The notes under the pieces were generated by a model. The model had not been told where the DNA came from, made no database searches, and was given only the letters and a program-made list of their open reading frames with translations. A stretch of 64,000 bases of DNA, taken from positions 43,604 to 107,603 of IMG/VR virus record IMGVR_UViG_3300047576_000027; one strand, given 5' to 3'. Shown piece by piece: positions 2,650 to 30,526 of the stretch; position 1 is the first letter of the stretch, and every line of letters begins with the position of its first letter. This DNA is from a virus. Taxonomy: Duplodnaviria; Caudoviricetes. The position numbers and the translations under genes are program-made.

Positions 2650-4893
2650 TTACGGGCAAATATTAACCACGCTGGAGTTGTTTATCAGGGAACCGGTGGG
2701 TAACCCCGAGCAAGACGTGGGGAGCGATCCCATCTGAACTTTCCCGACTGTATGCAATGCGTTCCCCGTACTTGTGTTCTGCCCGTATACCGCATCGCCC
2801 GTACTGGAAGAGAGTCCGCTCAGGCCGTTGCCAGTACCAGTCTGGACCACAGCAAACCCCGATCCTGCCGTTGCGAGCGTAACCGCGATGCCTGCATTGG
2901 CCGAGAGCGCAATACCAGATCCGGATTGCTGGATGTTGATTCCCTCCGTGGAATTATTGACCGTCACGGTTTCAAGTCCCGTTATTTGAGTTGCGCCCGT
3001 TATGTTGGTGGCCCCCGCAACAAGACTGCCATTTATCGTTACGCCAGACTGGAACGTCGCCCCGCCAGCGCTGTTAAGGTTGGCCGTACCGCTGGGACCA
3101 AACGTGAGCGGGCCGCCGACCAGATTTGCAGATTCGGTATACAGGTTATTGAAATAGTGGGATGCGTCCCCCAAGGTTGTGTTGGCCGTCACTGGAGTGA
3201 TCTCGCTGGCACCGCTGCCGGTCAGGGTAATATTCGGCCCAAACGTCGGACTATCCAACGGCCCGACATTTTGCAGATGGGTTCCGGAAAGCGTTCCTGA
3301 TACAGATAATGCCGCCAGCGATGTGGCCCCAGGGGTAACGGTGAGACTCGTGAACGTTGGCGTGTTGCCGCCAGTGACAACACACGCCCATGCGGTCCCG
3401 TTAAATACGCGCAGGCACGACAGCGAATCATCCCAGTACAACATGCCCTGCACCAGTCCCTCGCCCCAACTCAGAGGGTTTGTGACGTAGGCAATCGTAG
3501 ATGTGATATTCCCGCAACACCAGCCGACGAACGCCCCGCTGATGTGGTTGCTGACAGGGGCGACCGTCAATGGAACGGTGAGACTGCCGATGGTGTAAGA
3601 TCCGGCTACGGTAACACTTTCCGGAGAACTGTCCTCAAACGTTATCTGTACGCCGGGGGCAAGGCCGCCAGCGTTATTAACCAGCATGGACGTACTCACG
3701 CCCCCGGTGAGCGCGCCGGTAATTTTCGCACTTGCGGGAGGTCCCGCTGAATGCCCGACGTCTACGTGACCACCGAGGTAAGCATCGGCACCAATAGTTC
3801 CCGTCGTCGTTATGGTGCCAGCCGGATAAAGAACACCGCCGACGTAACTGTTCGATGTGATCCCGCCATAGTTGGTGATGGCATCGTAGTATTTGCTGTC
3901 GGTCGCGTACCCCCCGCGAAAGAAGGCATAGCCGTTTGAATTGAATCCGTAAATGGACTCTACAGGGAGAGGCTTCGTGCATCCGGATTGCCCCTCATCC
4001 TGCCAGGTAAGTCCGCCATCGCTCGTTGTTCCGCCAGAATCGTTAAACGTCGGGATGGCAGCCCCGGAGAGTCCTGTTCCGGTCGCCTGCTGTATGTGGC
4101 CGGCCGGGTCAACAATTTGAAACTGGATCGGATAAATAGTCGATGCGGCCCAGTTCGGAGACATCACGGGAGACGTACCGGACCATAGCACGGTGTCAGT
4201 CGGGCCAAAAGTCCCGATTGGCTGAGTCACAATGTTGTGCCCGAGCGTGTCATAACAAATATCAGCGGGCAGAGCCGGATTCGGATTATACAGCGTGGGT
4301 GGAATCACCAGCACGTCTTCAAACGACGGAGTTGTCGGATCGAACGCGGTCAGTGCTCCCCATGTAATCGGACTCGGTATGCCGCCTCCACTGGCTTTCA
4401 CGTCGTACGGCCCGTTATCGGGATAGAAATACCAATAGCCTGTGGGACTGGCCGTGAATGGGTTCGTCAGGATGGTTCCGTTATTATCAGAAAAGATCGC
4501 CGCTGGGGCGTTCACTGGCATGGAGTAGGAAACGTCCGTCTGGACGCCCGCGCTGGCGGTGATATTGAGCGTCGTGGGCGACGTGACGGAAGATATAGTG
4601 TAGGGTGTTCCGGAGATTGTGATCTGAAGATTGGACCATTCTCCGCTGGTGTTGAATGTGCCGCTGCTGGTTAAGGTAACGGTCGTGCCAGATGTCGAGA
4701 CCGTGCCGGTTAAGCCGCCAGCGTAAAACACCGAGAGACTGCAAGAGGGGTAGCTCTGCTGCACCTTTGTCACCGACTGCACTCCGGACGTCACCACCAC
4801 CTGGCCACCCTGTGTACAGTAGCCTGAAACGCGGGCACGGGCGAAAAGAGACGGGGCGAGAATCAAAAACAGCAAGGCTACGCGCTTCAGCAT
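2650..4893 (-). CDS. Tail fibre/spike-like protein with Sec signal peptide
   Basis: G/T/S-rich mosaic fibre segments (TNPFTASPTGYWYFY, DGGLTWQ, TTLGDASHYFNNLY); N-terminal MLKRVALLFLILAPSLFA. Confidence 0.75.
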   Translation of the reverse strand: MLKRVALLFLILAPSLFARARVSGYCTQGGQVVVTSGVQSVTKVQQSYPSCSLSVFYAGGLTGTVSTSGTTVTLTSSGTFNTSGEWSNLQITISGTPYTISSVTSPTTLNITASAGVQTDVSYSMPVNAPAAIFSDNNGTILTNPFTASPTGYWYFYPDNGPYDVKASGGGIPSPITWGALTAFDPTTPSFEDVLVIPPTLYNPNPALPADICYDTLGHNIVTQPIGTFGPTDTVLWSGTSPVMSPNWAASTIYPIQFQIVDPAGHIQQATGTGLSGAAIPTFNDSGGTTSDGGLTWQDEGQSGCTKPLPVESIYGFNSNGYAFFRGGYATDSKYYDAITNYGGITSNSYVGGVLYPAGTITTTGTIGADAYLGGHVDVGHSAGPPASAKITGALTGGVSTSMLVNNAGGLAPGVQITFEDSSPESVTVAGSYTIGSLTVPLTVAPVSNHISGAFVGWCCGNITSTIAYVTNPLSWGEGLVQGMLYWDDSLSCLRVFNGTAWACVVTGGNTPTFTSLTVTPGATSLAALSVSGTLSGTHLQNVGPLDSPTFGPNITLTGSGASEITPVTANTTLGDASHYFNNLYTESANLVGGPLTFGPSGTANLNSAGGATFQSGVTINGSLVAGATNITGATQITGLETVTVNNSTEGINIQQSGSGIALSANAGIAVTLATAGSGFAVVQTGTGNGLSGLSSSTGDAVYGQNTSTGNALHTVGKVQMGSLPTSCSGLPTGSLINNSSVVNICP

Positions 4894-12670: not shown

Positions 12671-13167
12671 TGAATCCCCCCTTCGGCAACCATATCATCC
12701 AACACGGAAGGCTCAAGCACGGAAGGTTCCACTGGCAGCAATTCCACGGGCGGTAACTGTCTCGGCCCAATCTGCTTCGACATTACGCACCACGGCTCCG
12801 CCACCATCCCCCGAGACTCCGCGAGTGCCGCCATACGTCCCGGCTTCACAAAAGCATACGTCCAGACCGGCCCGCACTTGGCGTACAGAATCTCTTCCAT
12901 CCGGCGCATCAGCCGCCCGAATAGATGTGAATAGCCTTTCTCGATTTTCGTTGGCTCAACGTGCAGTTTCAGTTGCGCGAAACAGTATCCGACGATCTTC
13001 CCGTCCAGGATCACGCCGAAAGCGGTTGCCGTTTTTAAGTCCGGCAGATTCGCCCCTTCAGCCCGGAAGTCCGGCTCCAGCGTCTGGATTTCTTCGGGAG
13101 TCAGTTCGCGGATTTCCGGTTCATCCGTGGGCAGCACTGGTTTCGGGATTTTGATCGGCTCGATCAT
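12667..13167 (-). CDS. GNAT-like protein of tail/ejection module
   Basis: DGKIVGY...HVEP...LAESRGM; conserved position before ejection genes. Confidence 0.55.
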   Translation of the reverse strand: MIEPIKIPKPVLPTDEPEIRELTPEEIQTLEPDFRAEGANLPDLKTATAFGVILDGKIVGYCFAQLKLHVEPTKIEKGYSHLFGRLMRRMEEILYAKCGPVWTYAFVKPGRMAALAESRGMVAEPWCVMSKQIGPRQLPPVELLPVEPSVLEPSVLDDMVAEGGIQ

Positions 13168-13261
13168 GAGAGTGTCTTGGTGCTAATTATAGCGTTTTTA
13201 CTATCAACCTCCACGTCAGCCTCCGAGGTGGATACCACCGGCTCTCAGTCGGCGAGTCGCT

Positions 13262-14197
13262 TTACTGCCTGAAAAACGCCCGCCTGATGAGGTTTGGCGG
13301 CAACGCCCCCGTGGAACTGCCAGAAACACTTGCACTCCCGCTCAGTGTCACCGGGTGCGTATGTGGCTCTGCGGGTACGGTCGCGCCAGTACCCGACATG
13401 ACCGTTTGAGTCCCGCTGTCATTGCCGGTACTCCCGCTGACCAGTGCGCTTCCGGATGCCGTCACCGTGCCGTTCGTCGCGGCATTCAACCCGCTGTTTG
13501 CAGCTCCGTATTCAAGAAACACCCCGGTAGGCGATACTCCGGAAATGTTCGGCAGCATGACGCTCCCGATAGTGCCGTCCGATTTCAGGTAATTGTGCGC
13601 TGCGCCATCGTAAAGCGCCCATCCAGTGCCGGGATCTACCTCAAACGGGACCGGACCCATCCCGCTACCGGATTCTCCCGGTCCCCATTGCCATCCCGAT
13701 CCGGTCCATCGCAGGACATGCAAATAATCGGTAACGCTCACCAGGAGTCCCGCGTGGACCGCAGAAAGTGATCCTGCGAGAGCGGTGAGTTGGGACTGGG
13801 TACGGTACAGGGTTCCGTCCATGTATGCCCACGAGAACGTGGCTCCCGCCGTGTAACGGAAAAGCACTCCGGAGTCGCCAGTGGTCGGCGCAAACTCAAT
13901 TACAAGTCCATCCTGAGCATAAGGTGCTCCCGTTGTGGGATTGTTGTTCGGAACGGTCGCGAGGGCTGGAACGAATGCGTACTGGGGGCCTGATGCCGTC
14001 CCGCTTGCGCCCTCTATCGAGTCGGCAGTGATGTTTTGGACTATGGTGGTTGTGGTAGTGGTCGAGGTGGCCGCCGCCGCCGCGGCGAGAGCGTTATTAG
14101 CTGCGCTGATGGCGGCATTTGTCCTGTCGTACAGGTCTGAGATATTCGCCTGATAAGGGCCTCCGGGAATGGTCAGTCTGGCGGGAGGGAGGGGCAT
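13262..14197 (-). CDS. Tail needle / collar-type short fibre
   Basis: PGTGWALYDG...LPNISG...HTH collar-like motifs. Confidence 0.6.
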   Translation of the reverse strand: MPLPPARLTIPGGPYQANISDLYDRTNAAISAANNALAAAAAATSTTTTTTIVQNITADSIEGASGTASGPQYAFVPALATVPNNNPTTGAPYAQDGLVIEFAPTTGDSGVLFRYTAGATFSWAYMDGTLYRTQSQLTALAGSLSAVHAGLLVSVTDYLHVLRWTGSGWQWGPGESGSGMGPVPFEVDPGTGWALYDGAAHNYLKSDGTIGSVMLPNISGVSPTGVFLEYGAANSGLNAATNGTVTASGSALVSGSTGNDSGTQTVMSGTGATVPAEPHTHPVTLSGSASVSGSSTGALPPNLIRRAFFRQ

Positions 14198-14205
14198 GGC
14201 GGTGG

Positions 14206-17200
14206 TTAGGTCTTAAAAACTGCAAGTGAAATATAACTATCTTCCACCCATTGTTTTGTCTCTATCGTGAAGTCATCAGTAAACAGGGCGAAGTTCACAC
14301 CGCCACCGTCCAGCATGTACGCTGCGGACAGAAATTTAATTGCCTGTGGGAGCATTTGTTCCTGGATCATGAACTGGCCGCCAGTTGAGGGTATAGTAAC
14401 CACGAAAGACACTCCGTTTTGCTGCTGAATGGTGAAGGTAACAGGAGCGGTACTTATAAGTCCAGCGTATAATCTTTTGTGTGTTTTCCATCCCGGAAAG
14501 GCTAATGAAATGAACTGCGTCAGTACTCTTGTACTCAGAAAAGGCTGAATGTAAAAAGCAGGCTCAACGGCATATATACGTGGTCCGTCAGGACCGCCGC
14601 TCCAACTGAGTTTGATGGATATATTCCGGTACAAAGCCAGTTCTCCCGGCACCGAGGAAATATTCACGATATTTTGCTGTCGCGCCGCGACGGAAGTGAC
14701 GTTGACAACAGGCGAGTTAATTGAATTGTTGTTATAAAACTGAGCAGTCGCGATAACTCCCGCCTGATCTGAATCCACTATCCAGTCAGTAGGTAACTTT
14801 TGTGTTCTTTCATCCCCCCCATCCAAAGAAGGAATCTGCAACAAAGAATTTATCGTCGCCCCATTGTCCGTATCGCCGCCGACCTGGTACAGATTCCCCA
14901 ATGTCCGCGATAACTGGATAATCTGCATATTATTCGGTGAGTTTACCAGCCCCTCAACCAGATACTCGTACGACATCGGATCGTTGAATGAATGCGGAAA
15001 CCATCGTTTCTTCGGGATCTCGAAGCGGAACGTGACCTGATTGCCCTCGGTGTCCAGATACAAAAAACTAATCTCGTTATCAAGACACGACAACCGCATA
15101 AACGAAGTCTGCGTCATGTCCACCGGATAGAGGCCGTTCGTCACCGCTGCGGGTTGTCCTTCGTGAGGAAACAGCGGGTAAAGTTTTGGATCGGTGACAT
15201 TTTCCCCCGCCCTGATCGGTCCAGCGATAAATCCCGTCGCGCCCGATGGCATACGCCCCATCTGGCCCCCGGCAGATTCCCCATTTGCACCAGAACCCGG
15301 AAGGCGACGGGAGCCGGACGAATTGGTACGGCGACTGACCCTCCAGCGCCTGGATAAAAGAATAGCGGACGAGAAAGGTGTTTAGTCGTGATCCGGCAAA
15401 CACCAAACCGTTCCATACTTCGCCGGTCACCAGCGGTTCACTGGGTCCGGAAAGTTCGATGGTATTCTGGTCGCTCACACCATCGAGATTGGCGGTATTT
15501 GTGAAATAGAGCGTCCCCGCATTTACCAGGTCTCCCAACCCGAATGCCACAGGGGCAAAGGGGCCTTCCAGTGGCCCGAATACAATCGGCAACGGCTGGT
15601 TGGCGAGCGTAGGCGACTCGATGGAATAAGCGGCATTTGTCAGTACGCCAGCGTCTGACTGGATCTCAAGGTACGCGGGTGAATGCGGTTGCCCGCGTGT
15701 CAAATAAGCTACACCATTCAGCAGTATGATGGAATTCTGCAATAGATTGACATTGAACGTCGTACCGCTCACCCAGATGACCGAAGTGCCCACCACGTTC
15801 ACCACGCCCGTCCATGCCAGTCCGAGAGTCGGCCACGGCTGAAGTTGGGTCAGATCGGGCGATGGGTTGGTGGCTATGGTTTCATCGGCCAGCCCGTCCG
15901 TGAACGAGTTCGGACTGGCGTTGTTGTTCTGCACCGACCCGACATAAACGAATTCGGTGAGTGTTCCGCCCTCGCGGTAGATGTCCGAATAATCGACTCC
16001 GCCTGCTGTGGTTGTTGCCGGGGTGGCTACTATCGACTCCCGAAGCGGATCAAGCGAATATCGGGTTGTCGGCCCCGGAACTGAGAGTGCCCCGGTTGAG
16101 GAATCGCGGAAAACTGAATCGTAGAAGTACCCCGATGGCGCATTCGGCTGGATTACCGGCCCGTACGTACCGAAGAAATACCACCAGTCAAATCCCCAGT
16201 TGCAGACCCCCGTGGAGACGATTGTTATCCCGACCGCCTGAACGGCGGAAAAATCAAGGGCCAGATTGCCTCCGTTTTGAATCCCCTGCGAGATCGGAAT
16301 GACGATTTCGCCCCAGACCCCGGCACTGTTCTGTCCAAATGAACCGAGATCCTTCTGCGTTAGATTCCATTGCCAGAAGTTGCCCGTGAACGGTGTTCCG
16401 CCCGTTGCTGTCGCGGGGTCAATATCAATCAACAGCGTAAGCGTAGCGACGGTGAGAGGAGTTTCAAGAAACAGCGAGATATGCAGGTAATCGTTCGCGG
16501 GGTCGATGGTCCGGCCGTTTGCGTTCAGGCAATTGACCGGCGACCCGAACTTGATCCGGGCCGTGCCCGTCCCCGCCGCCGATCCCGAGTATGCGATGAA
16601 ATTGAACAGCGATGTTATGGTTTCCGTGGTGGCGTGTGCCAGTGCCGTGTAACAGTACCAGGAAAGCAACCCCGTCACGACTGATCCGGCACCGGCGGCG
16701 AAGGTGTGGACTGTTGAGCATCGCACCGAATAGGCGGTGCCGTCCGGTGAAAGAACGACGGAGAGAACGCGAATCACGTCTGTATGTGTTCCGTCTGCAA
16801 TCTGAATAAGGGAGTTCCTGTCCAGACCGCCCGGCAAGCCGTTCAGCACCAGAGAACACAACCCGGTCGATCCTGAGTCGTACTGGATAGCCTGCACATA
16901 GGAGGTCGCGATGGGGGTGTGAATCTCGCGAATCGTAACCGTTTCCTGGTTCCCGCCGCCTGAGTTGAGGACGATATTCATCCTCGCCCCGGTCCAGTTT
17001 GTTACGCCCGCAGACGGATTGATACATGCCCATCCCGCCGTACCTGAGTTGTAAAGGATATTCGCGATGGTGAATGCCCCGCCGTTGGTACGATCCTCGC
17101 CACCAGTGATACTCACGAAAGGGAGGGAAACGGTCCAGCCTACCGCCGAATTACCAGTCTCGACGGCGACGGATGCCGGGATGCCGAAATCGATGTTCGG

Positions 17201-17662
17201 GGCAGCATTCGGCGGGGTTACCCCGATTGCCCTCAGCGTCCCGTCCGCGCGGACTTTTACCTGCTTGTCCTGGTCGTAAACATACATCCACGATTCGGGT
17301 GAATTGTTGGGACGAAACGGGATCAGAGATAAAGGATTACCGGAGTAGCCAGAATCGATCTCGGCCAGAGCGGTTTCCTGGCCCTCCCACAGTTGAGTGC
17401 CGTTGCCGACAATGTAGGTGTAACCGGATGATACAAGGGATTCGTCCGGGTCGTTCAGTCGGCGGATTGAGTGCAGGAGTTTCGGGCCTCCGACGCCGGC
17501 TCCGAAAACCGAATAACCTGGCCGACCGTCGATTCGGCCTTCAGAGATGACTCTTGTGTTGAAAAGGTAGGGGAATGAACCTGGCGGCATCCGGTCTACC
17601 GGATGCACGAGGTCTATGCCGGAACAATCCATCCGGACCGGCAGTCTTTGAACTTCGGGCAA
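14206..17662 (-). CDS. Tail nozzle / tubular protein B-like, broken by +1 frameshift near 15207 (ORFs 15080-17662 and 14206-15261)
   Basis: HPVDRMPPGSFPYLFN start; beta-propeller-like repeats; AIGRDGIYRWTDQG continues as GENVTDPKLYPLF in the +1 frame. Confidence 0.7.
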
Positions 17663-17695
17663 ATTTCAGTTTAGCGGATTGTCCGTCAGCAGTTT

Positions 17696-17845
17696 TTACC
17701 CAACCCTCTTCATCATCCGCTCCAACTCCATCACCTGAATATCCTGGCTCTCCATCAGCGTCAGATGCAGGAACAGATTCGCGTCCTGGTCGCGTTCGGC
17801 CAGTTCTTTGAACTTCATGAGCGTGATCCACCATGTAGCGGTCAC
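17696..17845 (-). CDS. Small hypothetical protein (49 aa, not in ORF track)
   Basis: GTG start overlapping upstream TGA; MTATWWITLMKFKELAERD... Confidence 0.45.
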   Translation of the reverse strand: MTATWWITLMKFKELAERDQDANLFLHLTLMESQDIQVMELERMMKRVG

Positions 17846-18015
17846 TTCACCCTCCACTTATGGGAACGACGGGGACTGATGACTGTCAATCGCCCACAAG
17901 AGACGCATGTGACACAGTAGTTTTCAGGGGGCCATACCCAGACGTGCGTGTACCCACAATGACAGCATCGGAGCATTCCGTAGGCCCACTTCTCATCGTG
18001 GTGACGATGGGTCAC
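17842..18015 (-). CDS. Small zinc-ribbon protein
   Basis: CCHCG...CVSCG; GTGA coupling. Confidence 0.5.
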   Translation of the reverse strand: MTHRHHDEKWAYGMLRCCHCGYTHVWVWPPENYCVTCVSCGRLTVISPRRSHKWRVK

Positions 18016-19346
18016 TTCACCCCCGCCATCGGCCTGATATCCGGTCGCATCCCTTCTTCGCGCTGCCACTGGCCGAAAAGCGGTTCAAAGTATTTTATCT
18101 TCGCGGCGTTTACGCCCTTCCGCGTCGAAACGGCACGCATGAAGTTATCGTACAGTTCCATCGTGGCCTTGAGTTCCGTACCGCCGCACTTAACGAGCAG
18201 ATAATTACAGCAATAATCGATAACGTCCTGAAGGTTTTCTTCCCCGATCTGAAGGTATTGATTTGCAGTCGGCAACGGTGCCGGGGTCACCACGTCGGCA
18301 CCAATGGAATAGGGTTGATCGACCGCGCCAGGGTTAATGACAGCGAAGTCGTAGAGGATACCAGCCATCTGCGGAATCCCGATCTGGTTGCGCCAAAACG
18401 GGCACCCGGCATCGATGGCGGCCAGAGAATCGATCAGCAACGGATTTCCGTTACAGGTGAGCCGAATGATGGAACGGGCATCGCGGGCGAAAGCTACCGC
18501 CTGCTTGTAGCGCTGGGATGCATATTGGGCACGGAGGGGATCTACGATCTGATTCCCGCCGGTCAGAATTTCCTCCATCGCCGCATATTTGATGGCGTAA
18601 CACCATTCGTCCGGCACACCGATCAATGATGCGGGATTGGTAATATCAATCAGCAACGAATCGACCGTCACCGCTTCCAGTGTCCCGGCATTGAGCGGCG
18701 GGGGATACATCTGCAATACGAGCGGTGCAAGTTCGGCTTCCGAGTACGCCAGCGGCGCGCCGGGATCGACTTCCCATGCCTCGCTGGAATGGTCGAACAT
18801 CCATACGTCGTCGCGCCATAGATTCGACCATGCGCCGCCCGAATCCTGCCACGAGACACGGTGAACGAATACCGATGACTGGTCGAAACTCACGAGGCCG
18901 TTGGGTGGGGATACCGGTTCAAAATCGAAATGGACAGCGTTCGGGAAGTGTACGTCCAGGATGAATCTGTTCCGGGCACGCTGGATCGCTCCAGGGATTG
19001 CAGATATCGGGACTTGCCCCGATGCATTCGCACCCGAGATGCCACTCGCCGGTTCGAGAAGGTGGTATTGAATCTCAGTTGTGAGTTGAGAGAGCGTCGT
19101 GGTCCGCGAGCGCAGAAGCGGGAGTTTTTGGCTCAGGTCGTAGAATGGACTGCGATCAGTCGGGCGAGCGTTAAAGGACCCTCTTTGACGCCAGAAACTT
19201 GTGAGCGAACCAAAGACGCGGAGAGCCTCGTAGATTGCGTATGTGATTTCCGGTACAGTCCAAAAAACGGCGCTAGAATCATCGAGTAAAGAGGATATCT
19301 GCGATATCAACTGCGTCAGCGTGATCTGACTGTAGCCGCTCGGCAC
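18012..19346 (-). CDS. Head-tail adaptor / tail tubular protein A-like
   Basis: TLTQLISQISSLLDD...WTVPEITYAIYEA; LQMYPPP; VPDEWCYAIKYAA. Confidence 0.7.
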   Translation of the reverse strand: MPSGYSQITLTQLISQISSLLDDSSAVFWTVPEITYAIYEALRVFGSLTSFWRQRGSFNARPTDRSPFYDLSQKLPLLRSRTTTLSQLTTEIQYHLLEPASGISGANASGQVPISAIPGAIQRARNRFILDVHFPNAVHFDFEPVSPPNGLVSFDQSSVFVHRVSWQDSGGAWSNLWRDDVWMFDHSSEAWEVDPGAPLAYSEAELAPLVLQMYPPPLNAGTLEAVTVDSLLIDITNPASLIGVPDEWCYAIKYAAMEEILTGGNQIVDPLRAQYASQRYKQAVAFARDARSIIRLTCNGNPLLIDSLAAIDAGCPFWRNQIGIPQMAGILYDFAVINPGAVDQPYSIGADVVTPAPLPTANQYLQIGEENLQDVIDYCCNYLLVKCGGTELKATMELYDNFMRAVSTRKGVNAAKIKYFEPLFGQWQREEGMRPDIRPMAGVK

Positions 19347-19447
19347 TATGGACTTAGGTTACCGCAGTTTACAGGAGCCCATCCCCATCACCTCAAGAGC
19401 CATCCGGAGATTGTCCAGTGCTTCACAGGTGACTCCGGGCATCGTCA

Positions 19448-19636
19448 CTACTTCTTCGTATACCCGTTCTTCGGAGCAGGGGAATCCATCGTCGCTCCCG
19501 GCTTCTCCTGGGCGCGACCCAGTTTTGAACTGTCGGGGTAAACCTTCACCGGCATCTCGCGGTCGCCGGCGGATGCGCTGGTGTTCGGAACGGGTGAATC
19601 CATTGAATTGCTTTTTCCGGGGGCTGTTTCGGTCAT
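19448..19636 (-). CDS. Small protein with MDSP repeat
   Basis: RBS AGGAG; SMDSPVP / TMDSPAP. Confidence 0.5.
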   Translation of the reverse strand: MTETAPGKSNSMDSPVPNTSASAGDREMPVKVYPDSSKLGRAQEKPGATMDSPAPKNGYTKK

Positions 19637-19670
19637 ATTGAGTTCTCCTGTTTTAGAGTTTAGCGCAATG

Positions 19671-21491
19671 TCAATTACAGAACCACCCTGTATAGCCGTA
19701 AACATAAGTGCAATCCACGCTGCCCAATGCAGGTACGGTGGCATTGAGAACCGTCAACGGAGAAAAGGTCGTATTGATAAACGTGATCCTCCTTTGATCC
19801 CAGCCGCGCGCTATAGAGGTTAAAGCCGTGCTGCCCGTAAGTCCGATAACTGCCGGATCGAGTGGGCCGGGGTCGAACGATGCGGCACTGGCCATAGTGG
19901 GAACGGTTGGTGCTCCGACATTATTTGCATAGACCCTATACGGGGTGGTTGACGAGTCCGTGAGGGGGCCGTTCGCATTTCCGCTGAGTTGGTTGCCGGT
20001 AACCGACCAGTTTGACACTCCAGAACCAATCGCAATACCGTAAGACTGAGTCGTTCCAACGTCGTAATAAGAACCGTTGAACTGACCACCGGTTATGTTC
20101 AAGCTCGTGACATTCCCTGCTGCGTACAGGCCATCGTACACGCCAATGCTGGCTATGCTGTTGCCAAGCGACCAAGCCCCGTTAATGGTGATGTTTGTAC
20201 CTCCCAGGATGTCAAACCCGTGGTGGCCGTTTATCACCGACTTATAGTCGGTAAATTTTATCTGCGAAATCGTCCCCGTGCTGCCAATGTAAACCCCGTC
20301 CTGCGTGGCGCAAGCCGACGCTGAATTCGCGAATATCCAATCGTTAACTATCCCCCCTGGCGGCGGGTTGATTACAAGCCCCTGCCCCGGATTGCAGTCC
20401 AGATAGACATTTATCCAGTTGCCAAATCTGGCAGTCTGGCCGCTCGGCGGGTCAATGAGAGCATCCTTGCCGCACCCGGTCACGTAGGTATTAGTGATAT
20501 CTTCCGCAGCGTCGCCAAGGATGTGGATGCCAATGCTCGTCAGGCCGACGTCCGTACAGGCGATCTGAATGTTATTGAGGAATGTGTTGCCGCCGTTGTC
20601 TGCATTAAACGTGATTCCGTCCCCGTTGTTGTACAGGATCACGATATTGTCCCAGGTGCCACGCTGGGTGATCTCCCCCGTTTGGTAAATCCCGTTGTTG
20701 ACGTAGTCAATGTTTATGTTTTTGAGGTTCAACTGAGCTTGATTATTGATATAAATTCCCGTGTTCGTATTAGATGTGGCAGGTCCGATAATTCTGAGAT
20801 TCTGAAGGCAGTTGCCCTGTCCGACGCCGCCTGGAGAATGGGGGCCGTCCTCGAATATGATATTGCCGGTGGAAGGACCGAGCCAATTCAGGACTACTGC
20901 GGGGAACGTTGAAACGCCCGACACGCACACGCCTTGTCCAATAATGGATATCTGACCGTATATATTCCATGTTCCTGCCTGGACTAAAACGTTACCGCCA
21001 GATGGTATTGTCGTCGCTGCCTCTTGAATTCCTGCGGATGCGCTTTGGACAGTCCATTGCCCGCTGTGACTGTTGGCGCAGGTCATGATAATGGTCCCTG
21101 AAGGTGCGCCAGACACGGCCGTTCCGCCCGTGACAAGACAAGATTCCGGAGTGCCAGTTCCACCGGAAGCATACATGTAGTAATTAACGTTTGTTCCGTT
21201 GACGCCGGGAGGGACTGGCCTTAGAGTGATGGAGTTTGAGCCCGGGTTGAGAGTCCCGCCTGGAGCCTGCGCCGCGAAATTAAAGTTGCTCGCGATAACG
21301 CTTCCCTGCCCGGCGATTACCTGGCTGTAGAGATTCGCGAAATTGGTATTGATCGTGGCCCTGGAGTCGCTCACCAGCTCCGTTCCCTGTATGACCGTGG
21401 GCGGCGGGGGAGTCTGCGAAAATGCAGGCCACGCTAAAATAAGGGTTGCCGCTATGGATGCTGTAAGTCTGGTCAAGGCGTCAGTCTTCAT
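19671..21491 (-). CDS. Beta-helix tailspike with Sec signal peptide
   Basis: Likely start MKTDALTRLTASIAATLILAWPAFS|Q; INTNFANLY docking motif; pectin-lyase-like repeats. Confidence 0.8.
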   Translation of the reverse strand: MKTDALTRLTASIAATLILAWPAFSQTPPPPTVIQGTELVSDSRATINTNFANLYSQVIAGQGSVIASNFNFAAQAPGGTLNPGSNSITLRPVPPGVNGTNVNYYMYASGGTGTPESCLVTGGTAVSGAPSGTIIMTCANSHSGQWTVQSASAGIQEAATTIPSGGNVLVQAGTWNIYGQISIIGQGVCVSGVSTFPAVVLNWLGPSTGNIIFEDGPHSPGGVGQGNCLQNLRIIGPATSNTNTGIYINNQAQLNLKNINIDYVNNGIYQTGEITQRGTWDNIVILYNNGDGITFNADNGGNTFLNNIQIACTDVGLTSIGIHILGDAAEDITNTYVTGCGKDALIDPPSGQTARFGNWINVYLDCNPGQGLVINPPPGGIVNDWIFANSASACATQDGVYIGSTGTISQIKFTDYKSVINGHHGFDILGGTNITINGAWSLGNSIASIGVYDGLYAAGNVTSLNITGGQFNGSYYDVGTTQSYGIAIGSGVSNWSVTGNQLSGNANGPLTDSSTTPYRVYANNVGAPTVPTMASAASFDPGPLDPAVIGLTGSTALTSIARGWDQRRITFINTTFSPLTVLNATVPALGSVDCTYVYGYTGWFCN

Positions 21492-21505
21492 CTCTTGTTT
21501 TCGCC

Positions 21506-23590
21506 TTAAAAGGTGGTAAGTGCCGACCGTTTCCAGGTGTTCGTCGCCGTGCAGACGTAAAAATACGAGGTGTCCCAAACCGCCGTTCCCGTTATGCACG
21601 TGCTGGAGCTGCTGGGAGGGGTTGCAAGAGGTTGATTAAAAACCCCGGTAATAGTCAGGTTTCCGGCACTGTCCACGATCAAAGGCGAAACCAACCCCGA
21701 TCCTGTCTCGAACACCGCGTTCAGTTTTCCACCTATCGGCCCCAACCACCACACCCCGCTGGCAGTCGTGCTACCTCCTATGGAGAAGATCAAGTTTGAT
21801 ATATTCCCTGAGGCCGAACGGTCAACCAGCAGGCTTGATGCCGATTGTCCGGAACCGAAAATAGAAGACGGGCCAGTTGTCGTGACGAGCGGAGCCTGCA
21901 ACGATACGCTTGCATTTACTGTTTGCGGGTATTGCACACCATCGCACTCGTAAACGCCGTTTAAAACTGACGTCCCAATACCGGACGGAAACACGCATCC
22001 CCACCCGACTCCGCTGTTGGCTCTCACCTGGTTCCAGTCGTTATTTGTGACCGAGATAAATGTCCCTGCCCCGCTTCCCTTGTCATCGGTCCTGTTCCCA
22101 ATTATTGTGGCGCGCGCGCTCTGCACGTTTATGGTCGGGTGAGTATAACTCGTGTTGCCCTGCCTGAAAAAGTGCCCGTCATTAACGATAAGACTTCCGC
22201 CCCCGGAGGTTGAGTCGCTGATGCTTGATATGTCGGCAGCCAGAGTCCACATCCAGGCATTAGTTATCTGTAAGTCCATCTCTCCATCCCCCGACAGCAA
22301 AACCAGAGGGCTGGAACCGGCAGTGCCGCCAGGATAGAAGAAGAAGTTTGTCGCCTTGACGTTCGTTGGTTGCCCCGGACAGCTTGAATTGGATACGTTC
22401 AGAACGGGAATGGAACCCAAGCTCCCCTGTGAAAAGCTGGTATTTGTGAACTCGTAGAATCCGCAGGTGATGTTTATATCGCCGTTGGTGTCAACCGTGG
22501 TGTTTACGAAGTGTGCGGGGAATGCCCACCCGCCAGATCCGACTACCGAATTGTATCCGCCGACCGAGTGAATCGAATAGGTGAAGTAATCAGTAACATG
22601 CAGGTCGTCTGCGCGCCCTATGTAAAGACCGTATATGTTGTTGGACAAATTTGTGAACGCGCTCAGTTGATTTGCTGTCATTTGATTCGCGACGGTTCCG
22701 TAAGGCCAAAATCGGACTTTGTCCAGATAAGTAGAGTCTGCTGCTCCGTCGATCTGAATCCCCTTGTCAAACATCGATGCCTGTAGATTTGTAATGGATG
22801 AGCCGCCCGCCTCAGCCCTCATGTCAACAACGTCCCATGCCAAAAAGACGCTTACATTGGTAATCGAAAATCTGGATACACCCTGAAAATAGAATGTTGG
22901 TGGCCAGTGGGTATAAAGGGAAATATTCGTCGAATCCGGTTGCGCATAAGTTACATTGAAATCGTGTACAACACAGCCGAATCCGGCAAAAGGAGCACCG
23001 ATAAACAGACCTTGCACGGTCAGGGGAAAATCAGCAGCAACCGTCAACGTCGTCGTCCAGATACCTTGCCCTCCAATGTTTTGATTTAGAGGGCAGTAAA
23101 CCGGCCCGTGTATGGTCACCGGAGCGGTGATCTGCACGCTGGTATTGCCCGCGGCGATGGCTTCAGGGAGTCCTCCCGCAACAGACCGGACTGACCATGC
23201 TCCGCTATGTGAATTGGCCGCAATGAACGTTATCGTCCCGACAGATGCCCCCGAGATGCACGACCCGCCAGTTATCATATCGGACTCGGCATTCCCCGAC
23301 CCGCCATAAAAATATAGCCAGTGGTCCGTGTCGTTTCCATTGACGCCCTGGGGACACGGAGACAGTGTGACTATGTTGAAGCCGGGGGAAATGGTGCCGC
23401 CCGGCATCTGCGGCGTAAAATTGTAGTTCTGGGCGGCTACAATCGGGAGACTGAGGAACTGATTCTCCAGGTATGCGAAATTATTGTTAATAATCGTGGG
23501 GCCGTTGCTGATGAGGTCGTTGGGCTGAATAACCGTTATCTGACCTGCCGCCACAGATGAAAACAACAATGCCAGAACAATCTTTTCCAT
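21506..23590 (-). CDS. Beta-helix tailspike with Sec signal peptide
   Basis: RBS AGGAGA; MEKIVLALLFSSVAAG|Q; INNNFAYLE docking motif; C-terminal WDTSYFYVCTATNTWKR. Confidence 0.8.
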   Translation of the reverse strand: MEKIVLALLFSSVAAGQITVIQPNDLISNGPTIINNNFAYLENQFLSLPIVAAQNYNFTPQMPGGTISPGFNIVTLSPCPQGVNGNDTDHWLYFYGGSGNAESDMITGGSCISGASVGTITFIAANSHSGAWSVRSVAGGLPEAIAAGNTSVQITAPVTIHGPVYCPLNQNIGGQGIWTTTLTVAADFPLTVQGLFIGAPFAGFGCVVHDFNVTYAQPDSTNISLYTHWPPTFYFQGVSRFSITNVSVFLAWDVVDMRAEAGGSSITNLQASMFDKGIQIDGAADSTYLDKVRFWPYGTVANQMTANQLSAFTNLSNNIYGLYIGRADDLHVTDYFTYSIHSVGGYNSVVGSGGWAFPAHFVNTTVDTNGDINITCGFYEFTNTSFSQGSLGSIPVLNVSNSSCPGQPTNVKATNFFFYPGGTAGSSPLVLLSGDGEMDLQITNAWMWTLAADISSISDSTSGGGSLIVNDGHFFRQGNTSYTHPTINVQSARATIIGNRTDDKGSGAGTFISVTNNDWNQVRANSGVGWGCVFPSGIGTSVLNGVYECDGVQYPQTVNASVSLQAPLVTTTGPSSIFGSGQSASSLLVDRSASGNISNLIFSIGGSTTASGVWWLGPIGGKLNAVFETGSGLVSPLIVDSAGNLTITGVFNQPLATPPSSSSTCITGTAVWDTSYFYVCTATNTWKRSALTTF

Positions 23591-23604: not shown

Positions 23605-26172
23605 CTAAAATGACAAAAACGGTGCGTGCGTTGCCTGCCAGTGCCCGTCGTTCCACGGCCCCGCGAACGGCCAGTCTTCGTATGTAAGCCTTGTGATTCC
23701 AATATTTTCGTCGTTAACTTCCAGATCCACTATCAGATTCTCATACCGCTCCCGATGATAATTAGCCAGTTGCAGGCTGAAGTACGGATTGGGGTGATCC
23801 ATATCCGCGCCGGGGTACGTCGCACATTTCTCAAGTGCCATCTCCAGAATTATTTCTCCGCGATTCGCAATGGGTGGGGGGAGAATAGGATTCTGCGCGG
23901 TCAGGTCGGTTTCCTTGACAAAGTAGATGAACGGGTACAGGTAACCATTAAAAGATGGCGCAGGCCACAGTTCATACCGCGCTACCCCGCTCGTGAGAAT
24001 TGATTCGGCGTTGATAGTGAACACGTCGCCGGCCACGTAAATGAGCGGACTCCCCCATGTATTGTTGTCGTCTTCCCACGGGATCGGCAGTTCCTGCCAG
24101 GTCGGCCCTGTTCCGCTGGGCCAGTAAACCTGTACGCCATCCGCGAGATCCTGCGGGGTTGTGGATGTGACAACCGGCAGGGAGAATACCAGTTGTCCGG
24201 CCCGCATCCACTGGAATGTGGCTACCCCGGCAGGGCCGCCGGTTACCACCTGGATGATGTAGACGGCACTGTCCGGGTATGTATATCCGAGTGTAGTTAC
24301 AGAAACAGGTGCCGGGTCTGTGGGAGATGTTACGGAGTTTACCGGGCCGATGATGCCGCCAAGATTGTTCGTAAAATCGTAGAATGCGATAGCGTACGTC
24401 TGCCCCTGGTTGGTCCGTTGCGGGTCGAGCATCGCCAGTTCATATTCCGTCGCCTGAGTCCACAACCTGTATCCGTCTTTGATGGATACGGCTACCTCAA
24501 AATAGCCGAAGTCGGCGGGGACCGGATAATACACCTGCAAAATCTGATAAGCGACAACTGAGACATCCTCGCCCGCCCACGGCTGATCGATGAGAATTTG
24601 GTTGGCTGAAAGCCATCCGGTAATCGTGTAGTAGGGGAAAAGCAAACCGCCGGCCCGTATCTGAGATCCGATCATGGATGGGGTCCATTCCGTCCCCGTG
24701 CCGGTGATAAGGTTCGGATTCCCGTTCGCCACATTCGTTGATACCCATCCGGCAGAGTAAAGCGTCGGCGGGGCGAATGTTCCGGACTTTCTCCGCCAGG
24801 ACCAGTCCTTGCGTGCCTGAAGAGCGTGCCATGAATCGTTGATCATTTGCTCGGCAAGCTGGATGCCGATAGCGGGACAACGGTCGAGAAGCCTGTTTGA
24901 GAGAGTATTGAAATCGTCTCCGCCAGTCGATCCCGAGATGAGTGCCGGACGCGGTCGTATAGTCCACGGCGCGGGGGCCATCGGGTAATTTTCGTAATTC
25001 CGGTTGGATACGGACACCTCTTCGTCAGCGGTTGCAAGCTCAGCAATGAATTTGTCTGCCCGTGTCTCGTGCAGGCTGGCAAGTTCCAGGTTGAAATAAA
25101 CGTTCGGATGCTCGCTGTCCTGCCCCGGAAACCGTGCGCAGGCAGCAAGCGCCATCTCCAGAATCACATCCCCGCGATTAGCGACAAATGGCGGCAGCGT
25201 CGGATTTTCCGCGTTGATATCGTATTCTTTTGCGATGTAAATATAGGGGTAAACGGAACCGGCGCCCGTGGGTGTCGGAGATGGCCATAATTCATATCGA
25301 GGCGCACTCTGTGTTACCTGTGATTTACAATTGATAATGAACGAATCCCCGGCCACGTATGTACCGGCCGGCCAGTAAACCTGCACGCCATCACTCAGGT
25401 CCTGCACGCTCCCCGAAGTGATCTGTATCGGCTGAAAGGACTGCTGTCCTGCGCGAAGCCACTGGAATGTGGCCGTTCCCACTGTGCCGCCGGACACGAC
25501 CTGAACGACGTACGATGCGTCTGCCGGATAACTGTAACCGAATGTTGTAGTACTTATGGGTGCCGGACCGGTGGGCGACGTGACCGGGATTACGGGACCG
25601 ATAACACCGCTGTAGTTGACGGTAAAGTCGCGGAATGCTGTAGCAAAAGCCGTTCCCTGGTTGGTCCGCTGCGGGTCGAGGACTGCCAGTTCGTTCTGAG
25701 TTACCGAAGTCCAGAGCCTCTGGTTGTTCTGAGTCGAAACAACGACATGGAAATAGTTGAAATCCGCCGGAACGGAATAGTAAGTCCGCAGTATTTGGTA
25801 CTGCTGCGATAAGACGTCGGGGCCAGCCCACGGCTGGTCGATCAGTATCTGGCCGGGGGAAAGATACTGCGAGATCGTGTAGAACGGATAAAGGGGACCG
25901 CCGATCCGGATTTGCAATCCGACCATTTGGGGAGTCCAGTTGCCCGTTCCGCTGATGAGATTGGGATAGCCAAGTGCGGCGGCTGTGGATGCCGCCCCGA
26001 CACTGTACACAACTGGCGGCGAAAACGTGCCCGATCTCCGCCTGAAACTCCACTCCCTGCGCGCCTGGAACTGGTGCCACGCATCATTAACCAACTGGCC
26101 CGCGAGAACAATCCCCACCGCCGGGCAGCGATTCTGGAGTCGATTGGTGAGCGTGGTGAAATTATCGGCCAT
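23605..26172 (-). CDS. Tandemly duplicated head-tail adaptor/ring protein
   Basis: Two ~420-aa homologous halves (FTTLTNRLQNRCP / FNTLSNRLLDRCP ... RYELWP). Confidence 0.75.
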   Translation of the reverse strand: MADNFTTLTNRLQNRCPAVGIVLAGQLVNDAWHQFQARREWSFRRRSGTFSPPVVYSVGAASTAAALGYPNLISGTGNWTPQMVGLQIRIGGPLYPFYTISQYLSPGQILIDQPWAGPDVLSQQYQILRTYYSVPADFNYFHVVVSTQNNQRLWTSVTQNELAVLDPQRTNQGTAFATAFRDFTVNYSGVIGPVIPVTSPTGPAPISTTTFGYSYPADASYVVQVVSGGTVGTATFQWLRAGQQSFQPIQITSGSVQDLSDGVQVYWPAGTYVAGDSFIINCKSQVTQSAPRYELWPSPTPTGAGSVYPYIYIAKEYDINAENPTLPPFVANRGDVILEMALAACARFPGQDSEHPNVYFNLELASLHETRADKFIAELATADEEVSVSNRNYENYPMAPAPWTIRPRPALISGSTGGDDFNTLSNRLLDRCPAIGIQLAEQMINDSWHALQARKDWSWRRKSGTFAPPTLYSAGWVSTNVANGNPNLITGTGTEWTPSMIGSQIRAGGLLFPYYTITGWLSANQILIDQPWAGEDVSVVAYQILQVYYPVPADFGYFEVAVSIKDGYRLWTQATEYELAMLDPQRTNQGQTYAIAFYDFTNNLGGIIGPVNSVTSPTDPAPVSVTTLGYTYPDSAVYIIQVVTGGPAGVATFQWMRAGQLVFSLPVVTSTTPQDLADGVQVYWPSGTGPTWQELPIPWEDDNNTWGSPLIYVAGDVFTINAESILTSGVARYELWPAPSFNGYLYPFIYFVKETDLTAQNPILPPPIANRGEIILEMALEKCATYPGADMDHPNPYFSLQLANYHRERYENLIVDLEVNDENIGITRLTYEDWPFAGPWNDGHWQATHAPFLSF

Positions 26173-28002: not shown

Positions 28003-29202
28003 TCACCCCTGGCAGTTAAAGCCGTACGTTACGTATCCCGGCAAAAAACTAAAATTGTGCGCCAGCAACACTTTCCCCACCAGCTTCGTGTTCCCCGCCG
28101 ACGGAATAAATCCGTCATCATCCAACGACCCGTCAAACGGCTTGGATTTGCTGGTCCGGTACTTGATCATCGGCTTGCGGATGTTCTCCACCCAGATGGT
28201 TTCGCCGAAGATGTTGCCGCCGGTCCCTACGCCGCCCGACCCGTTGCCCCACATCGCGGACGGTGCCGGGTAGGAGGTAGCATTTGAACCGGTCGCGTAA
28301 TTGATCATGCGGGTCGCGGTGCGGTCGTTGGTGCCGTTGGTGTTCGGAGTCGTTGCCGGGTTGGTTGACGCCACGCCGTTGGCGGGGTTCATCAGGTACG
28401 ATCCGGGCGCGTAACGCGAAGCATAGATTACAGCCGCGTTGTATTCGAGTCCCCTGAATCCGCCCTTGGCTGTCGTGACGTTCTGAAATCGCTGCTGGGT
28501 CTGGAAGTTGTTGCGGATGAAACTGTAAGCGATGGCGGTCGTGGTGATAACGTTCGGTTCGTACTTGCCGGAACCGAAGTTGACCGCCTGGTACATCTGA
28601 TCGAGAATCGGCAGCGTGATCGTGCCTCCCGCGAAGTTGTACGGTTTGGGAGCCAGCATACGGCCGCCGTAGAGGGATCGGGTCAGGGTTCCGTAAACCG
28701 GATAGGTATTGCCGTCCCATCCGATGTTGATACCGTCCGAGGATGCTTCCAGCAGACCATTCGGGAACTTTGAAAATGCCGCCGACTGGCCCTGAAGATA
28801 GCGCTGAATCGCAGTCTGCGCGCCCAACTGGACGAAGGCCGCGTCCACGCGCTCCGTCACGAGGTTGACGATTGCGAGCGCATCGCCCGCTACGTTGAAC
28901 ACGCGGATGGCTTCCTTGTTGAAGGGAATCATCGCCACGTTGAACTTGGGCAGGAACTGGAGCGCCTGCTCGATCTGCCGCTGGTCAGCCGGCAAGTCCT
29001 GGCCCATTGAGTAAGGACCGCCATCCTGCACGTCGTACTCGATGTTGTCATTCCAGTTCAGGCCACCCATTATTTGTTCATGGCACTCGTCGCCAATCAG
29101 GGACATCGTGGGATCGTGCTGGAAGACCATATCGCGAAGTTGCGGATTCTGGTCGATGTATCGCCGTGTGGTTACGGCGAGCATCCCTGCGGTATCTGGC
29201 AT
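28003..29202 (-). CDS. Major capsid protein (HK97 fold)
   Basis: 399 aa after scaffold; LAVTTRRYI, PNVITTT, QTQQRF, GFRGLEYN motifs; RBS GGAGG. Confidence 0.85.
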   Translation of the reverse strand: MPDTAGMLAVTTRRYIDQNPQLRDMVFQHDPTMSLIGDECHEQIMGGLNWNDNIEYDVQDGGPYSMGQDLPADQRQIEQALQFLPKFNVAMIPFNKEAIRVFNVAGDALAIVNLVTERVDAAFVQLGAQTAIQRYLQGQSAAFSKFPNGLLEASSDGINIGWDGNTYPVYGTLTRSLYGGRMLAPKPYNFAGGTITLPILDQMYQAVNFGSGKYEPNVITTTAIAYSFIRNNFQTQQRFQNVTTAKGGFRGLEYNAAVIYASRYAPGSYLMNPANGVASTNPATTPNTNGTNDRTATRMINYATGSNATSYPAPSAMWGNGSGGVGTGGNIFGETIWVENIRKPMIKYRTSKSKPFDGSLDDDGFIPSAGNTKLVGKVLLAHNFSFLPGYVTYGFNCQG

Positions 29203-29236: not shown

Positions 29237-30121
29237 TTAGTTCGTCAACTCTGCCGATTGAACGTCCATCGCCAGGCTTCGTAGCAGGGCACTGCGATCA
29301 AACCCTTCCGCACCCTTGTGAACAGAGAGAGCGCTGGGCGTTGCATCTGCCCCTCCGTTGATCAGGCGGGATGAGTTCTGCTGCTTGCGCTCCTCGTCCC
29401 ACCTGGCCCGCTCTGCCGCCACGGCTGCCTTGATTTCATTGGCACGGGCTTCCTGCTGAAACTTCTCGCGCTCCGGCTTATCCCACTCGTCGTAGGCGGC
29501 TTCCAGGTTTCCGTTCGTTTTTTCGGTCGCGAGTTTCGTTACGGCATCGAAGTCCAGCGGGGTTTTCCGCTGGGCAGAGATGTGCTTGAGCACAATCTTT
29601 CCGGCGCCCGTTACGAGTTCGCCCCACTTTGGGGCATATCCTTCGGCGATCCGTTTGTCCACAAGTCGCTGGATATCTGCCTCAGCGACGGCTGGCGAAG
29701 TTCCCGCCTTAATCCGCGCATCAACCAGCGACTGGACCTGCGCTTCGGTTAGCGTTCCCGATCCCGTGCTCACTGGCGGTGTCACGGCTGGCAACTCCCC
29801 TGCGGCGGCTTTGGTAAATGCGTCTGCCCCCCATTTGTCGTTAAAAGCCTTGATCGCCTTGTCATTGGCAACGATGGCCGCGACGTTCTTTTCATACCAT
29901 TCGCGAGTCTGTCGCGCACCGACCTTCCCTGCCGCCTGGTCGCCTTCCAGTTCAGCCTGAAGTGCCTGGCGCTCATTCATGATGCGGTCAAACTCAGACT
30001 GTTGCTTCAACCCGGCAGCTTTCGCTTTCACCGCATCACGCTGCACAGCTTTTGTGACGACGGCTTTTTCCGCGTCGTCCAATCCGTCTGTCAGCCATCC
30101 CAAAAATTCGTTTACGTCCAT
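29237..30121 (-). CDS. Capsid scaffolding protein
   Basis: Helical, charged; LEAAYDEW; directly upstream of MCP. Confidence 0.7.
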   Translation of the reverse strand: MDVNEFLGWLTDGLDDAEKAVVTKAVQRDAVKAKAAGLKQQSEFDRIMNERQALQAELEGDQAAGKVGARQTREWYEKNVAAIVANDKAIKAFNDKWGADAFTKAAAGELPAVTPPVSTGSGTLTEAQVQSLVDARIKAGTSPAVAEADIQRLVDKRIAEGYAPKWGELVTGAGKIVLKHISAQRKTPLDFDAVTKLATEKTNGNLEAAYDEWDKPEREKFQQEARANEIKAAVAAERARWDEERKQQNSSRLINGGADATPSALSVHKGAEGFDRSALLRSLAMDVQSAELTN

Positions 30122-30127
30122 AGATTT

Positions 30128-30526
30128 TTACTGTGCTCCTGGTACTGGGGGTGTTCCGCCCTGAGGTATTCCTGAAGGCGCTGCGCCTTGTGGCGTTGCG
30201 CCTCCTGGTATTGCCTGAATTCCCGATGACTGACCGGTCGGTTGCAACGCCTGTTGCGCCGCCATCGGCAAGAGTGAAGTTGCCAGCGCGATAATTTGCG
30301 CGCACGGCTGTTCTGACCCCGGCACGGCCCCGGACTGCACGATTTGCTTGCACGCCGCCACGATGGAATCAACCGCCTGCTTGGTCGGCCCTACCGCCGA
30401 AATCAGTGCGGCCATGGCGGACTGCTGATTCGTCCCTCCGGGCGCGCCACCGGTTCCCGCCGCCGACTGAAGGTCCGGCAATGGCGGAAGCGGAGCGGCA
30501 TTCGGAGATTGGGTAGACGGACTCAC
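30128..30526 (-). CDS. Pro/Gln/Ala-rich head-region protein
   Basis: Composition and position. Confidence 0.6.
   Translation of the reverse strand: MSPSTQSPNAAPLPPLPDLQSAAGTGGAPGGTNQQSAMAALISAVGPTKQAVDSIVAACKQIVQSGAVPGSEQPCAQIIALATSLLPMAAQQALQPTGQSSGIQAIPGGATPQGAAPSGIPQGGTPPVPGAQ

What the first reader, a model, noticed from the sequence alone, without database searches (positions are those of the whole stretch)
19671..23590. Tailspikes with Sec signal peptides and co-varying cysteine pairs: possible extracytoplasmic assembly of virion appendages
Seen: both beta-helix spikes start with cleavable-looking signal peptides (MEKIVLALLFSSVAAG|Q; MKTD...TLILAWPAFS|Q). These are followed closely by TVIQ...IN(N/T)NFAxL, which resembles the N-terminal virion-docking motif of phage fibres. 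Each has exactly 10 Cys arranged as neighbouring pairs. In the shared N-domain the pair moves as a unit: spike 1 has SPC/GSC where spike 2 has V/A, and spike 2 has ESC/MTC where spike 1 has D/A. Known: tailed phages normally assemble fibres in the reducing cytoplasm without signal peptides. Inference: these spikes are exported, Dsb-oxidised in the periplasm and dock onto particles at lysis, or are displayed/released as host-surface or EPS-degrading proteins.
Basis: partly seen in the sequence, partly recalled or inferred. Interest (0 to 1): 0.92.

Follow-up and report, generated by a model that had tools for sequence, protein, structure and literature searches.

The report
Phage tailspikes carrying export signals
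A soil phage, probably of Acidobacteria, puts bacterial export signals on two tailspike proteins, and across the family the exported versions pair up or lose a cysteine that cytoplasmic versions leave single, so they probably fold in the periplasm and may join the particle only at lysis.

Summary
Observation confirmed, with corrections. Two beta-helix tailspike genes (23590-21506, 21491-19671, minus strand) lie between the two tail-adaptor genes of a 107.6-kb podovirus-type genome, probably of an Acidobacteriota host. Both have Sec-type leaders (heuristic call, no SignalP). The family has leader-bearing and leaderless forms in the same gene slot, even in close relatives. In the shared domain one cysteine is unpaired in 87/125 leaderless copies but 1/87 leader-bearing copies, and one Cys pair occurs in 51/87 versus 0/125. 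This supports real export and oxidative folding (about 0.85; not corrected for phylogeny). The motif behind the leader also starts leaderless tail-fibre-like proteins of other phages. Docking on virions is not shown (about 0.5): the closest relative has a Ro60 gene in this slot, and some leader-bearing homologues are chromosomal. '10 Cys each' means little. Cultured Tunturi 1/2 share the layout, so the idea is testable. GenBank lists three leader-bearing Cellulophaga phi18:3 proteins as MS-detected structural proteins. The scan noted this pattern before on other DNA (71 findings).

The parts
21506..23590 (-). Spike 1 gene, 694 aa: leader, fibre motif, beta-sandwich with C79-C111 pair, beta-helix body, C-terminal domain shared with virion tail proteins
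   Evidence: (PHROG 17312 tail, res 650-694)
23543..23590 (-). Spike 1 Sec-type leader (16 aa, predicted cleavage before Q17)
   Evidence: sequence; heuristic call, not SignalP
23465..23539 (-). Spike 1 N-terminal fibre motif (res 18-42)
23153..23437 (-). Spike 1 shared beta-sandwich (about res 52-146) with the leader-specific Cys pair 79/111
19671..21491 (-). Spike 2 gene, 606 aa: leader, fibre motif, beta-sandwich with C118-C138, right-handed beta-helix, C-terminal domain with C594-C605
   Evidence: (pLDDT 92, pTM 0.89)
21417..21491 (-). Spike 2 Sec-type leader (25 aa, predicted cleavage before Q26)
   Evidence: sequence; heuristic call
21330..21398 (-). Spike 2 N-terminal fibre motif (res 32-54)
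21012..21296 (-). Spike 2 shared beta-sandwich (about res 66-160) with Cys pair 118/138
23605..26172 (-). Upstream adaptor-like protein, tandemly duplicated (two ~420-aa units), no leader; candidate docking partner (untested)
18012..19346 (-). Downstream SU10-type tail adaptor, no leader
   Evidence: (PF24175, E 2.8e-6)
14206..17662 (-). Nozzle-like protein in two ORFs, homologous to Tunturi 1 gp31, no leader
13262..14197 (-). Leaderless, Cys-free short fibre-like protein, the only cytoplasmic receptor-binding candidate found
2650..4893 (-). Third leader-bearing fibre (747 aa, 10 Cys); its N-terminal domain type carries a Cys pair only in leader-bearing family members

Best explanation
The two genes encode tailspike-type beta-helix proteins, probably polysaccharide-binding or -cutting. 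They are made late, exported by the host Sec system, trimmed to an N-terminal Gln, and folded with disulfides in the periplasm. They keep a fibre-type N-terminal motif and attach to tails (or to another exported fibre) assembled in the cytoplasm once lysis mixes the two compartments. Shown: leaders, fold, gene position, leader-linked cysteine pairing, and leader-bearing and leaderless forms in the same slot in related phages. Inferred: actual export (about 0.85), trimer formation, enzymatic activity, and docking on the particle (about 0.5 overall).
For: (1) Cys switch in 212 de-duplicated copies of the shared domain: lone C138 in 1/87 leader-bearing vs 87/125 leaderless; pair 93/125 in 51/87 vs 0/125. 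It holds within one N-terminal type (0/23 vs 69/90). (2) The same pattern appears in other modules: a second N-terminal domain type has C..C only in leader-bearing members, and spike 1's C-terminal motif has one Cys in cyanophage and Klebsiella virion fibres but a pair here. (3) One-for-one swap in the virion module: L009 (leader) vs L008 (none), capsid 84% identical; L097 vs L059, adaptor 86%; L071 vs L067, adaptor 79%. The N-terminal domain is retained in each case. (4) The motif behind the leader follows Met directly in leaderless tail-fibre-like proteins encoded after an adaptor-like gene (L111-113, L118, L122). (5) All beta-helix genes found in this complete genome have leaders, as do the four large spike/fibre genes of the cultured plaque-forming podoviruses Tunturi 1/2 (PMC11924767). 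(6) Cellulophaga phage phi18:3 gp085-087 have classic leaders ending before Gln and are annotated in GenBank as structural proteins from MS/MS proteomics. (7) No tyrosine integrase found. (8) Own knowledge: P22 tailspikes and T4 fibres attach to finished particles in vitro.
Against: The closest relative (L104; capsid 60%, adaptor 63%) has a Ro60/TROVE gene and no spike in this slot, so the slot also takes accessory genes. Leader-bearing homologues have a virion gene within three genes less often (18/31 vs 40/42), and some lie in ordinary chromosomal regions (L006). A leaderless short fibre could serve as the only receptor-binding protein. The fibre motif has no significant match to a solved docking element. 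The domain tree is unresolved (only 2 supported independent pairs), so Fisher p-values overstate the case. 20/125 leaderless copies also carry the 118/138 pair. The phi18:3 note could reflect co-purification or transfer by homology; the paper was not readable.
Confidence: 0.5

Rival explanations
1. Exported but never part of the virion: the spikes are repurposed tailspikes released into the periplasm and then the surroundings. There they cut capsule or EPS to free progeny, or strip the receptor of the infected cell (superinfection exclusion). The N-terminal motif is kept only as a trimerisation neck.
For: The slot holds a moron in the closest relative; about ten leader-bearing proteins of many kinds in this genome; closest folds include secreted epimerases and lyases; chromosomal leader-bearing homologues exist; a leaderless short fibre is present.
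Against: Whole ~120-aa N-terminal domains are kept, and gain new Cys pairs, in leader-bearing spikes that replace the single spike of P22-like modules; MS-based structural annotation in phi18:3.
Confidence: 0.33
2. Dual location or inefficient export: part of the protein stays in the cytoplasm (or is clipped there by a phage protease) and assembles in the ordinary way; disulfides form after lysis in air.
For: Leaderless relatives carry many Cys, including the 118/138 pair in 20/125; Matrishin et al. interpret capsid 'signal peptides' as cleaved by prohead protease (PMC10367356).
Against: No internal start before the motif. Both forms meet air after lysis, yet only leader-bearing forms lose the lone Cys. 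72 of 85 leaders have a small residue followed by Gln in the expected region.
Confidence: 0.12
3. Host-surface modification by a lysogen or chronic infection: the proteins are displayed or secreted adhesins or glycan-modifying enzymes that benefit the host.
For: Glycosyltransferase-like and methyltransferase-like genes lie beside the exported-fibre clusters; chromosomal copies exist.
Against: No tyrosine integrase in a genome rated 100% complete; genes are tightly packed in the late virion operon; Tunturi 1/2 form clear plaques and have no annotated integrase.
Confidence: 0.05

Closest known systems
Beta-helix tailspikes (P22 gp9, HK620, Sf6, CBA120 TSP3, Det7/Dettilon gp208, phi29 gp12, Pam1 7EEA)
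   Same: Right-handed beta-helix body (Z 38.0, rmsd 2.6, 371 aligned to phi29 gp12; Z 35.9 to CBA120 TSP3); gene next to tail adaptors; N-terminal neck-like helix.
   Different: Those are made without a leader and fold in the cytoplasm (own knowledge). Here there are a Sec-type leader, leader-linked Cys pairs and a beta-sandwich at the helix cap.
Filamentous phage pIII (own knowledge)
   Same: Receptor-binding virion protein with a Sec leader and periplasmic disulfides.
   Different: pIII is membrane-anchored and added during extrusion of a non-lytic ssDNA phage. These spikes look soluble and belong to a lytic tailed phage.
Tunturi 1/2 gp12, gp13, gp14, gp17 (PMC11924767)
   Same: Homologous capsid, portal, adaptors and nozzle; leader-bearing, Cys-rich spike/fibre genes between the same two adaptors.
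   Different: The spikes are not sequence homologues of these two. The paper does not mention signal peptides or virion proteomics.
Cellulophaga phage phi18:3 gp085-087 (GenBank KC821620); Porphyromonas Nixviridae Q-rule proteins (PMC10367356)
   Same: Phage proteins with Sec leaders followed by Gln; the phi18:3 ones are annotated as MS-detected structural proteins.
   Different: Bacteroidota hosts and few Cys. Matrishin et al. read theirs as host-envelope modifiers, not tail parts.
Secreted beta-helix enzymes (AlgE4/AlgE6 epimerases, PL6 lyases, GH87)
   Same: Fold (Foldseek E 1e-8) and extracytoplasmic folding.
   Different: Bacterial, with no fibre motif and no virion gene context.

Membership tests
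Beta-helix tailspike | Right-handed parallel beta-helix body | tested here: met
   Spike 2 model pLDDT 92, Foldseek and VIA-align hits. Spike 1 by homology only.
Beta-helix tailspike | Encoded in the tail module next to adaptor/nozzle | tested here: met
   but the slot holds a moron in L104
Beta-helix tailspike | N-terminal virion-attachment element | tested here: inconclusive
   Motif shared with N-termini of leaderless fibre-like proteins; PDB best E 0.07-0.08
Beta-helix tailspike | Homotrimer | not testable with these tools
   complex predictor unavailable
Beta-helix tailspike | Present on the particle; binds or cleaves host polysaccharide | not testable with these tools
   needs proteomics and enzyme assay
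Beta-helix tailspike | Leaderless, cytoplasmic synthesis (true of characterised members; own knowledge) | tested here: not met
   leaders on both genes, no internal start
Sec/SPI substrate | Basic n-region, hydrophobic h-region, small residues at -3/-1 | tested here: met
   heuristic only; 0/343 calls on core virion ORFs; SignalP not available
Dsb-oxidised periplasmic protein | Cysteines paired, lone Cys avoided | tested here: met
   not phylogenetically independent
Dsb-oxidised periplasmic protein | S-S geometry in the structure | not testable with these tools
Inovirus pIII-type exported receptor-binding protein | C-terminal membrane anchor and extrusion assembly | tested here: not met
   no C-terminal hydrophobic anchor in either spike; portal, capsid and adaptor genes of a tailed phage

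The most novel reading that the evidence does not exclude
Tailed phages of Acidobacteriota (and others) use a two-compartment assembly route. Receptor-binding spikes are exported by Sec, oxidatively folded in the periplasm and docked onto cytoplasm-built particles at lysis, and lineages switch between this route and the ordinary one without changing gene slot or adaptor family.
Probability: 0.47. Interest if true: 0.92.

Novelty: new variant of a known kind. Interest (0 to 1): 0.78.

Why it matters
Tailed-phage particles are assumed to be completed in the cytoplasm before lysis. If exported spikes end up on particles, the last assembly step happens during or after lysis. Host range could then depend on host Sec/Dsb machinery, and free spikes could move between co-infecting phages. 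Even under the main rival, a tailspike family has switched between cytoplasmic and secreted forms with a visible cysteine signature, which bears on how soil phages deal with the capsule and EPS of Acidobacteria. The question is testable now, because cultured phages (Tunturi 1/2, phi18:3) have the same arrangement.

Tried and rejected
Pfam gave no hit on either spike. Single-protein scans of viral contigs found nothing. Whole-protein Cys parity: no difference, so '10 Cys each' was rejected as evidence; Cys density is only modestly higher (1.41% vs 1.16%). Tree-based independence test: unresolved, 19 changes on the best tree, 2 supported pairs, no significance. PDB/Pfam/PHROG searches for the N-terminal elements: nothing significant for the short motif; the second N-terminal type gave only 9VYG tail spike E 0.15; the longer type hits virion tail proteins 8VJH (E 6e-6) and 8RK3. 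I did not confirm the head-binding-domain match to 7EEQ named in earlier notes. Dual start: none found. Literature searches found no report of exported tailspikes, but the library is incomplete. Genome G005 (locus L018) is unpublished: it contributes up to two of the 87 leader-bearing domain copies, one of nine Acidobacteriota hits and one row. No conclusion depends on it.
Full report
Setting. The window is the right 64 kb of a 107.6-kb virus record rated 100% complete. The minus strand reads portal (32196-34211), scaffold-like gene, major capsid (28003-29202), duplicated adaptor-like protein (23605-26172), spike 1, spike 2, SU10-type adaptor (18012-19346), nozzle-like ORFs, short fibre, small acetyltransferase-like gene, and Cys-free ejection-like proteins. 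The only cultured phages with a capsid match are the Acidobacteriota podoviruses Tunturi 1 and 2, which share portal, adaptors, nozzle and gene order. Nine of 11 prokaryotic genome bins holding the shared spike domain are Acidobacteriota. The host is therefore probably an acidobacterium (inferred).

The observation. Starts, leaders, ten Cys each and the four reciprocal Cys swaps are as described. Spike 1 has a good ribosome-binding site overlapping the adaptor's stop, and spike 2 starts 15 nt after spike 1. No alternative start lies between leader and fibre motif. A simple leader rule (not SignalP) called 0 of 343 core virion ORFs from related loci but about a third of spikes.

Fold. With a 129-row alignment, spike 2 folds at pLDDT 92 into a poorly defined N-terminal 35 residues, a beta-sandwich, a long right-handed beta-helix and a small C-terminal domain. 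The best matches are phi29 gp12 (Z 38.0), AlgE4, CBA120 TSP3 and Dettilon gp208. Structural alignments begin just before the beta-sandwich and continue after it, so the shared domain seems to be an insert at the helix cap rather than the anchor (inference).

The family has two forms. Searches gave 168 proteins: 57 with a leader, 94 without, 17 unclear, plus 91 loci. The same ~120-residue N-terminal domain occurs either right after Met or right after a leader. In P22-like modules the single spike between two adaptors is leaderless in most loci and leader-bearing in several (L040, L061, L071, L076, L084, L097). Close pairs differ in this state: L009/L008 (capsid 84%), L097/L059 (adaptor 86%), L071/L067 (adaptor 79%). 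The nearest full-length homologue of spike 2 (P0020, 43%) is leaderless and sits between two SU10 adaptors behind a P22 coat gene.

Cysteines follow the leader. This is the strongest new evidence. Among 212 copies of the shared domain (under 85% identity), the position matching spike 2 C138 is a lone Cys in 87 of 125 leaderless copies but in 1 of 87 leader-bearing copies, where it is either paired with C118 or lost. The alternative pair (spike 1 C79/C111) is in 51 of 87 leader-bearing and 0 of 125 leaderless copies. The contrast holds within one N-terminal type (0/23 vs 69/90). A second N-terminal domain type, used by the window's third fibre (2650-4893) and Tunturi gp12, has two Cys only in leader-bearing members. 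Spike 1's C-terminal motif carries one Cys in three virion fibres of cultured phages and a second one here. Both forms meet oxygen after lysis, so avoiding a lone thiol points to folding in an oxidising compartment (inference). Limits: the domain tree is unresolved, so these counts are not independent events. Some proteins contribute two copies, and whole-protein parity shows nothing. The four beta-helix Cys of spike 2 form a rung ladder that is not leader-specific. Probable host genomes encode DsbA-like thioredoxins and often glutaminyl cyclase.

The fibre motif. A scan with the three known copies found 17 further viral contigs. In several the motif follows Met directly in proteins with tail-fibre PHROG hits, encoded right after an adaptor-like gene; L122 has three such genes in a row. 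In others it follows a leader or a membrane segment. It is thus a real, mobile N-terminal module of fibre-like proteins. That it docks is not shown: the best PDB hit is a baseplate wedge gp10 at E 0.07-0.08.

Do they reach the virion? For: one-for-one replacement with the N-terminal domain kept; every beta-helix gene found in this genome has a leader; the four large fibre/spike genes of plaque-forming Tunturi 1/2 have leaders (PMC11924767); phi18:3 gp085-087 have clear leaders and a GenBank note of MS/MS-based structural annotation, although I could not read the source paper. Against: the closest relative has a Ro60/TROVE gene in this slot; 13 of 31 leader-bearing loci show no recognised virion gene within three genes, against 2 of 42 leaderless ones; some copies are chromosomal; and a leaderless short fibre exists. 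I put export at about 0.85 and docking at about 0.5.

Literature and earlier notes. No paper describing exported tailspikes was found. Matrishin et al. (PMC10367356) report Q-rule leaders on Porphyromonas phage genes of unknown function. The scan's own notes hold 71 similar findings in at least 69 genomes. They are not independent support. They supplied the Tunturi, phi18:3 and Matrishin leads, which I checked here. Later checks on two of them priced their bolder claims at about 10 in 100. My figure is higher because the claim is limited to spikes and rests on the leader-linked Cys switch and the paired loci.

Verdict. The feature is real: tailspike-type proteins in an exported, probably disulfide-bonded form. 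The assembly route that would make it a new principle for tailed phages is plausible, unproven and testable in cultured phages.

Noticed in passing
window 23605-26172 (-): The adaptor-like protein is a tandem duplication (two units, 63% and 58% identical to the single unit of L104). Two units coincide with two spikes here, but L104 has one unit and no spike.
   Followed up: partly
window 14206-17662 (-): The nozzle-like protein is in two overlapping ORFs; Tunturi 1 has one 1307-aa gene. L104 is also split, with an extra ~830-aa N-terminal part (prealbumin-like domain) on the second piece. Frameshift or true split not resolved.
   Followed up: partly
L104 3698-5068 (-): A Ro60/TROVE gene with upstream non-coding DNA occupies the spike slot in the closest relative; a Y-RNA-like partner was not looked for.
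   Followed up: no
window 1965-4893 (-) and genome G000 about 29800-39400 (-): Further clusters of leader-bearing fibre- or enzyme-like genes, most with even Cys counts in the mature part; two appear to start with GTG or TTG.
   Followed up: partly
window 1-1896 and 5078-5791 (+): Glycosyltransferase-like and methyltransferase-like genes beside the exported-fibre clusters (by inspection); they might glycosylate virion parts or host surface.
   Followed up: no
window 5939-6727 (+): Proteasome-subunit-like protein (PF00227, E 4.6e-5) in a phage genome.
   Followed up: no
window 19448-19744 (-): Small ORF with an N-terminal hydrophobic segment overlapping the end of spike 2; no Pfam hit.
   Followed up: partly
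L110, L114-L117, L119, L121 near 2870-3070: In low-GC phage contigs the same fibre motif follows a hydrophobic segment and a spacer ending in Gly-Ala/Ser, a leader style different from Sec/SPI; the gene lies between adaptor-like and nozzle-like genes.
   Followed up: no
L126 32891-38583 (phi18:3 gp085-087): Leader-bearing proteins annotated as MS-detected structural proteins; the C-terminus of gp086 looks by eye like that of spike 1 (comparison call failed on frame).
   Followed up: partly
P0024, P0040, P0072 and related leaderless spikes: Many leaderless family members carry a conserved 20-25-residue Phe/Gly/Arg-rich or Cys-containing N-terminal extension of unknown role.
   Followed up: no
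L099 (Tunturi 3) 7573-23095: The fibre genes of this other Acidobacteriota podovirus have no leaders, so export is not required for infecting Tunturiibacter.
   Followed up: yes
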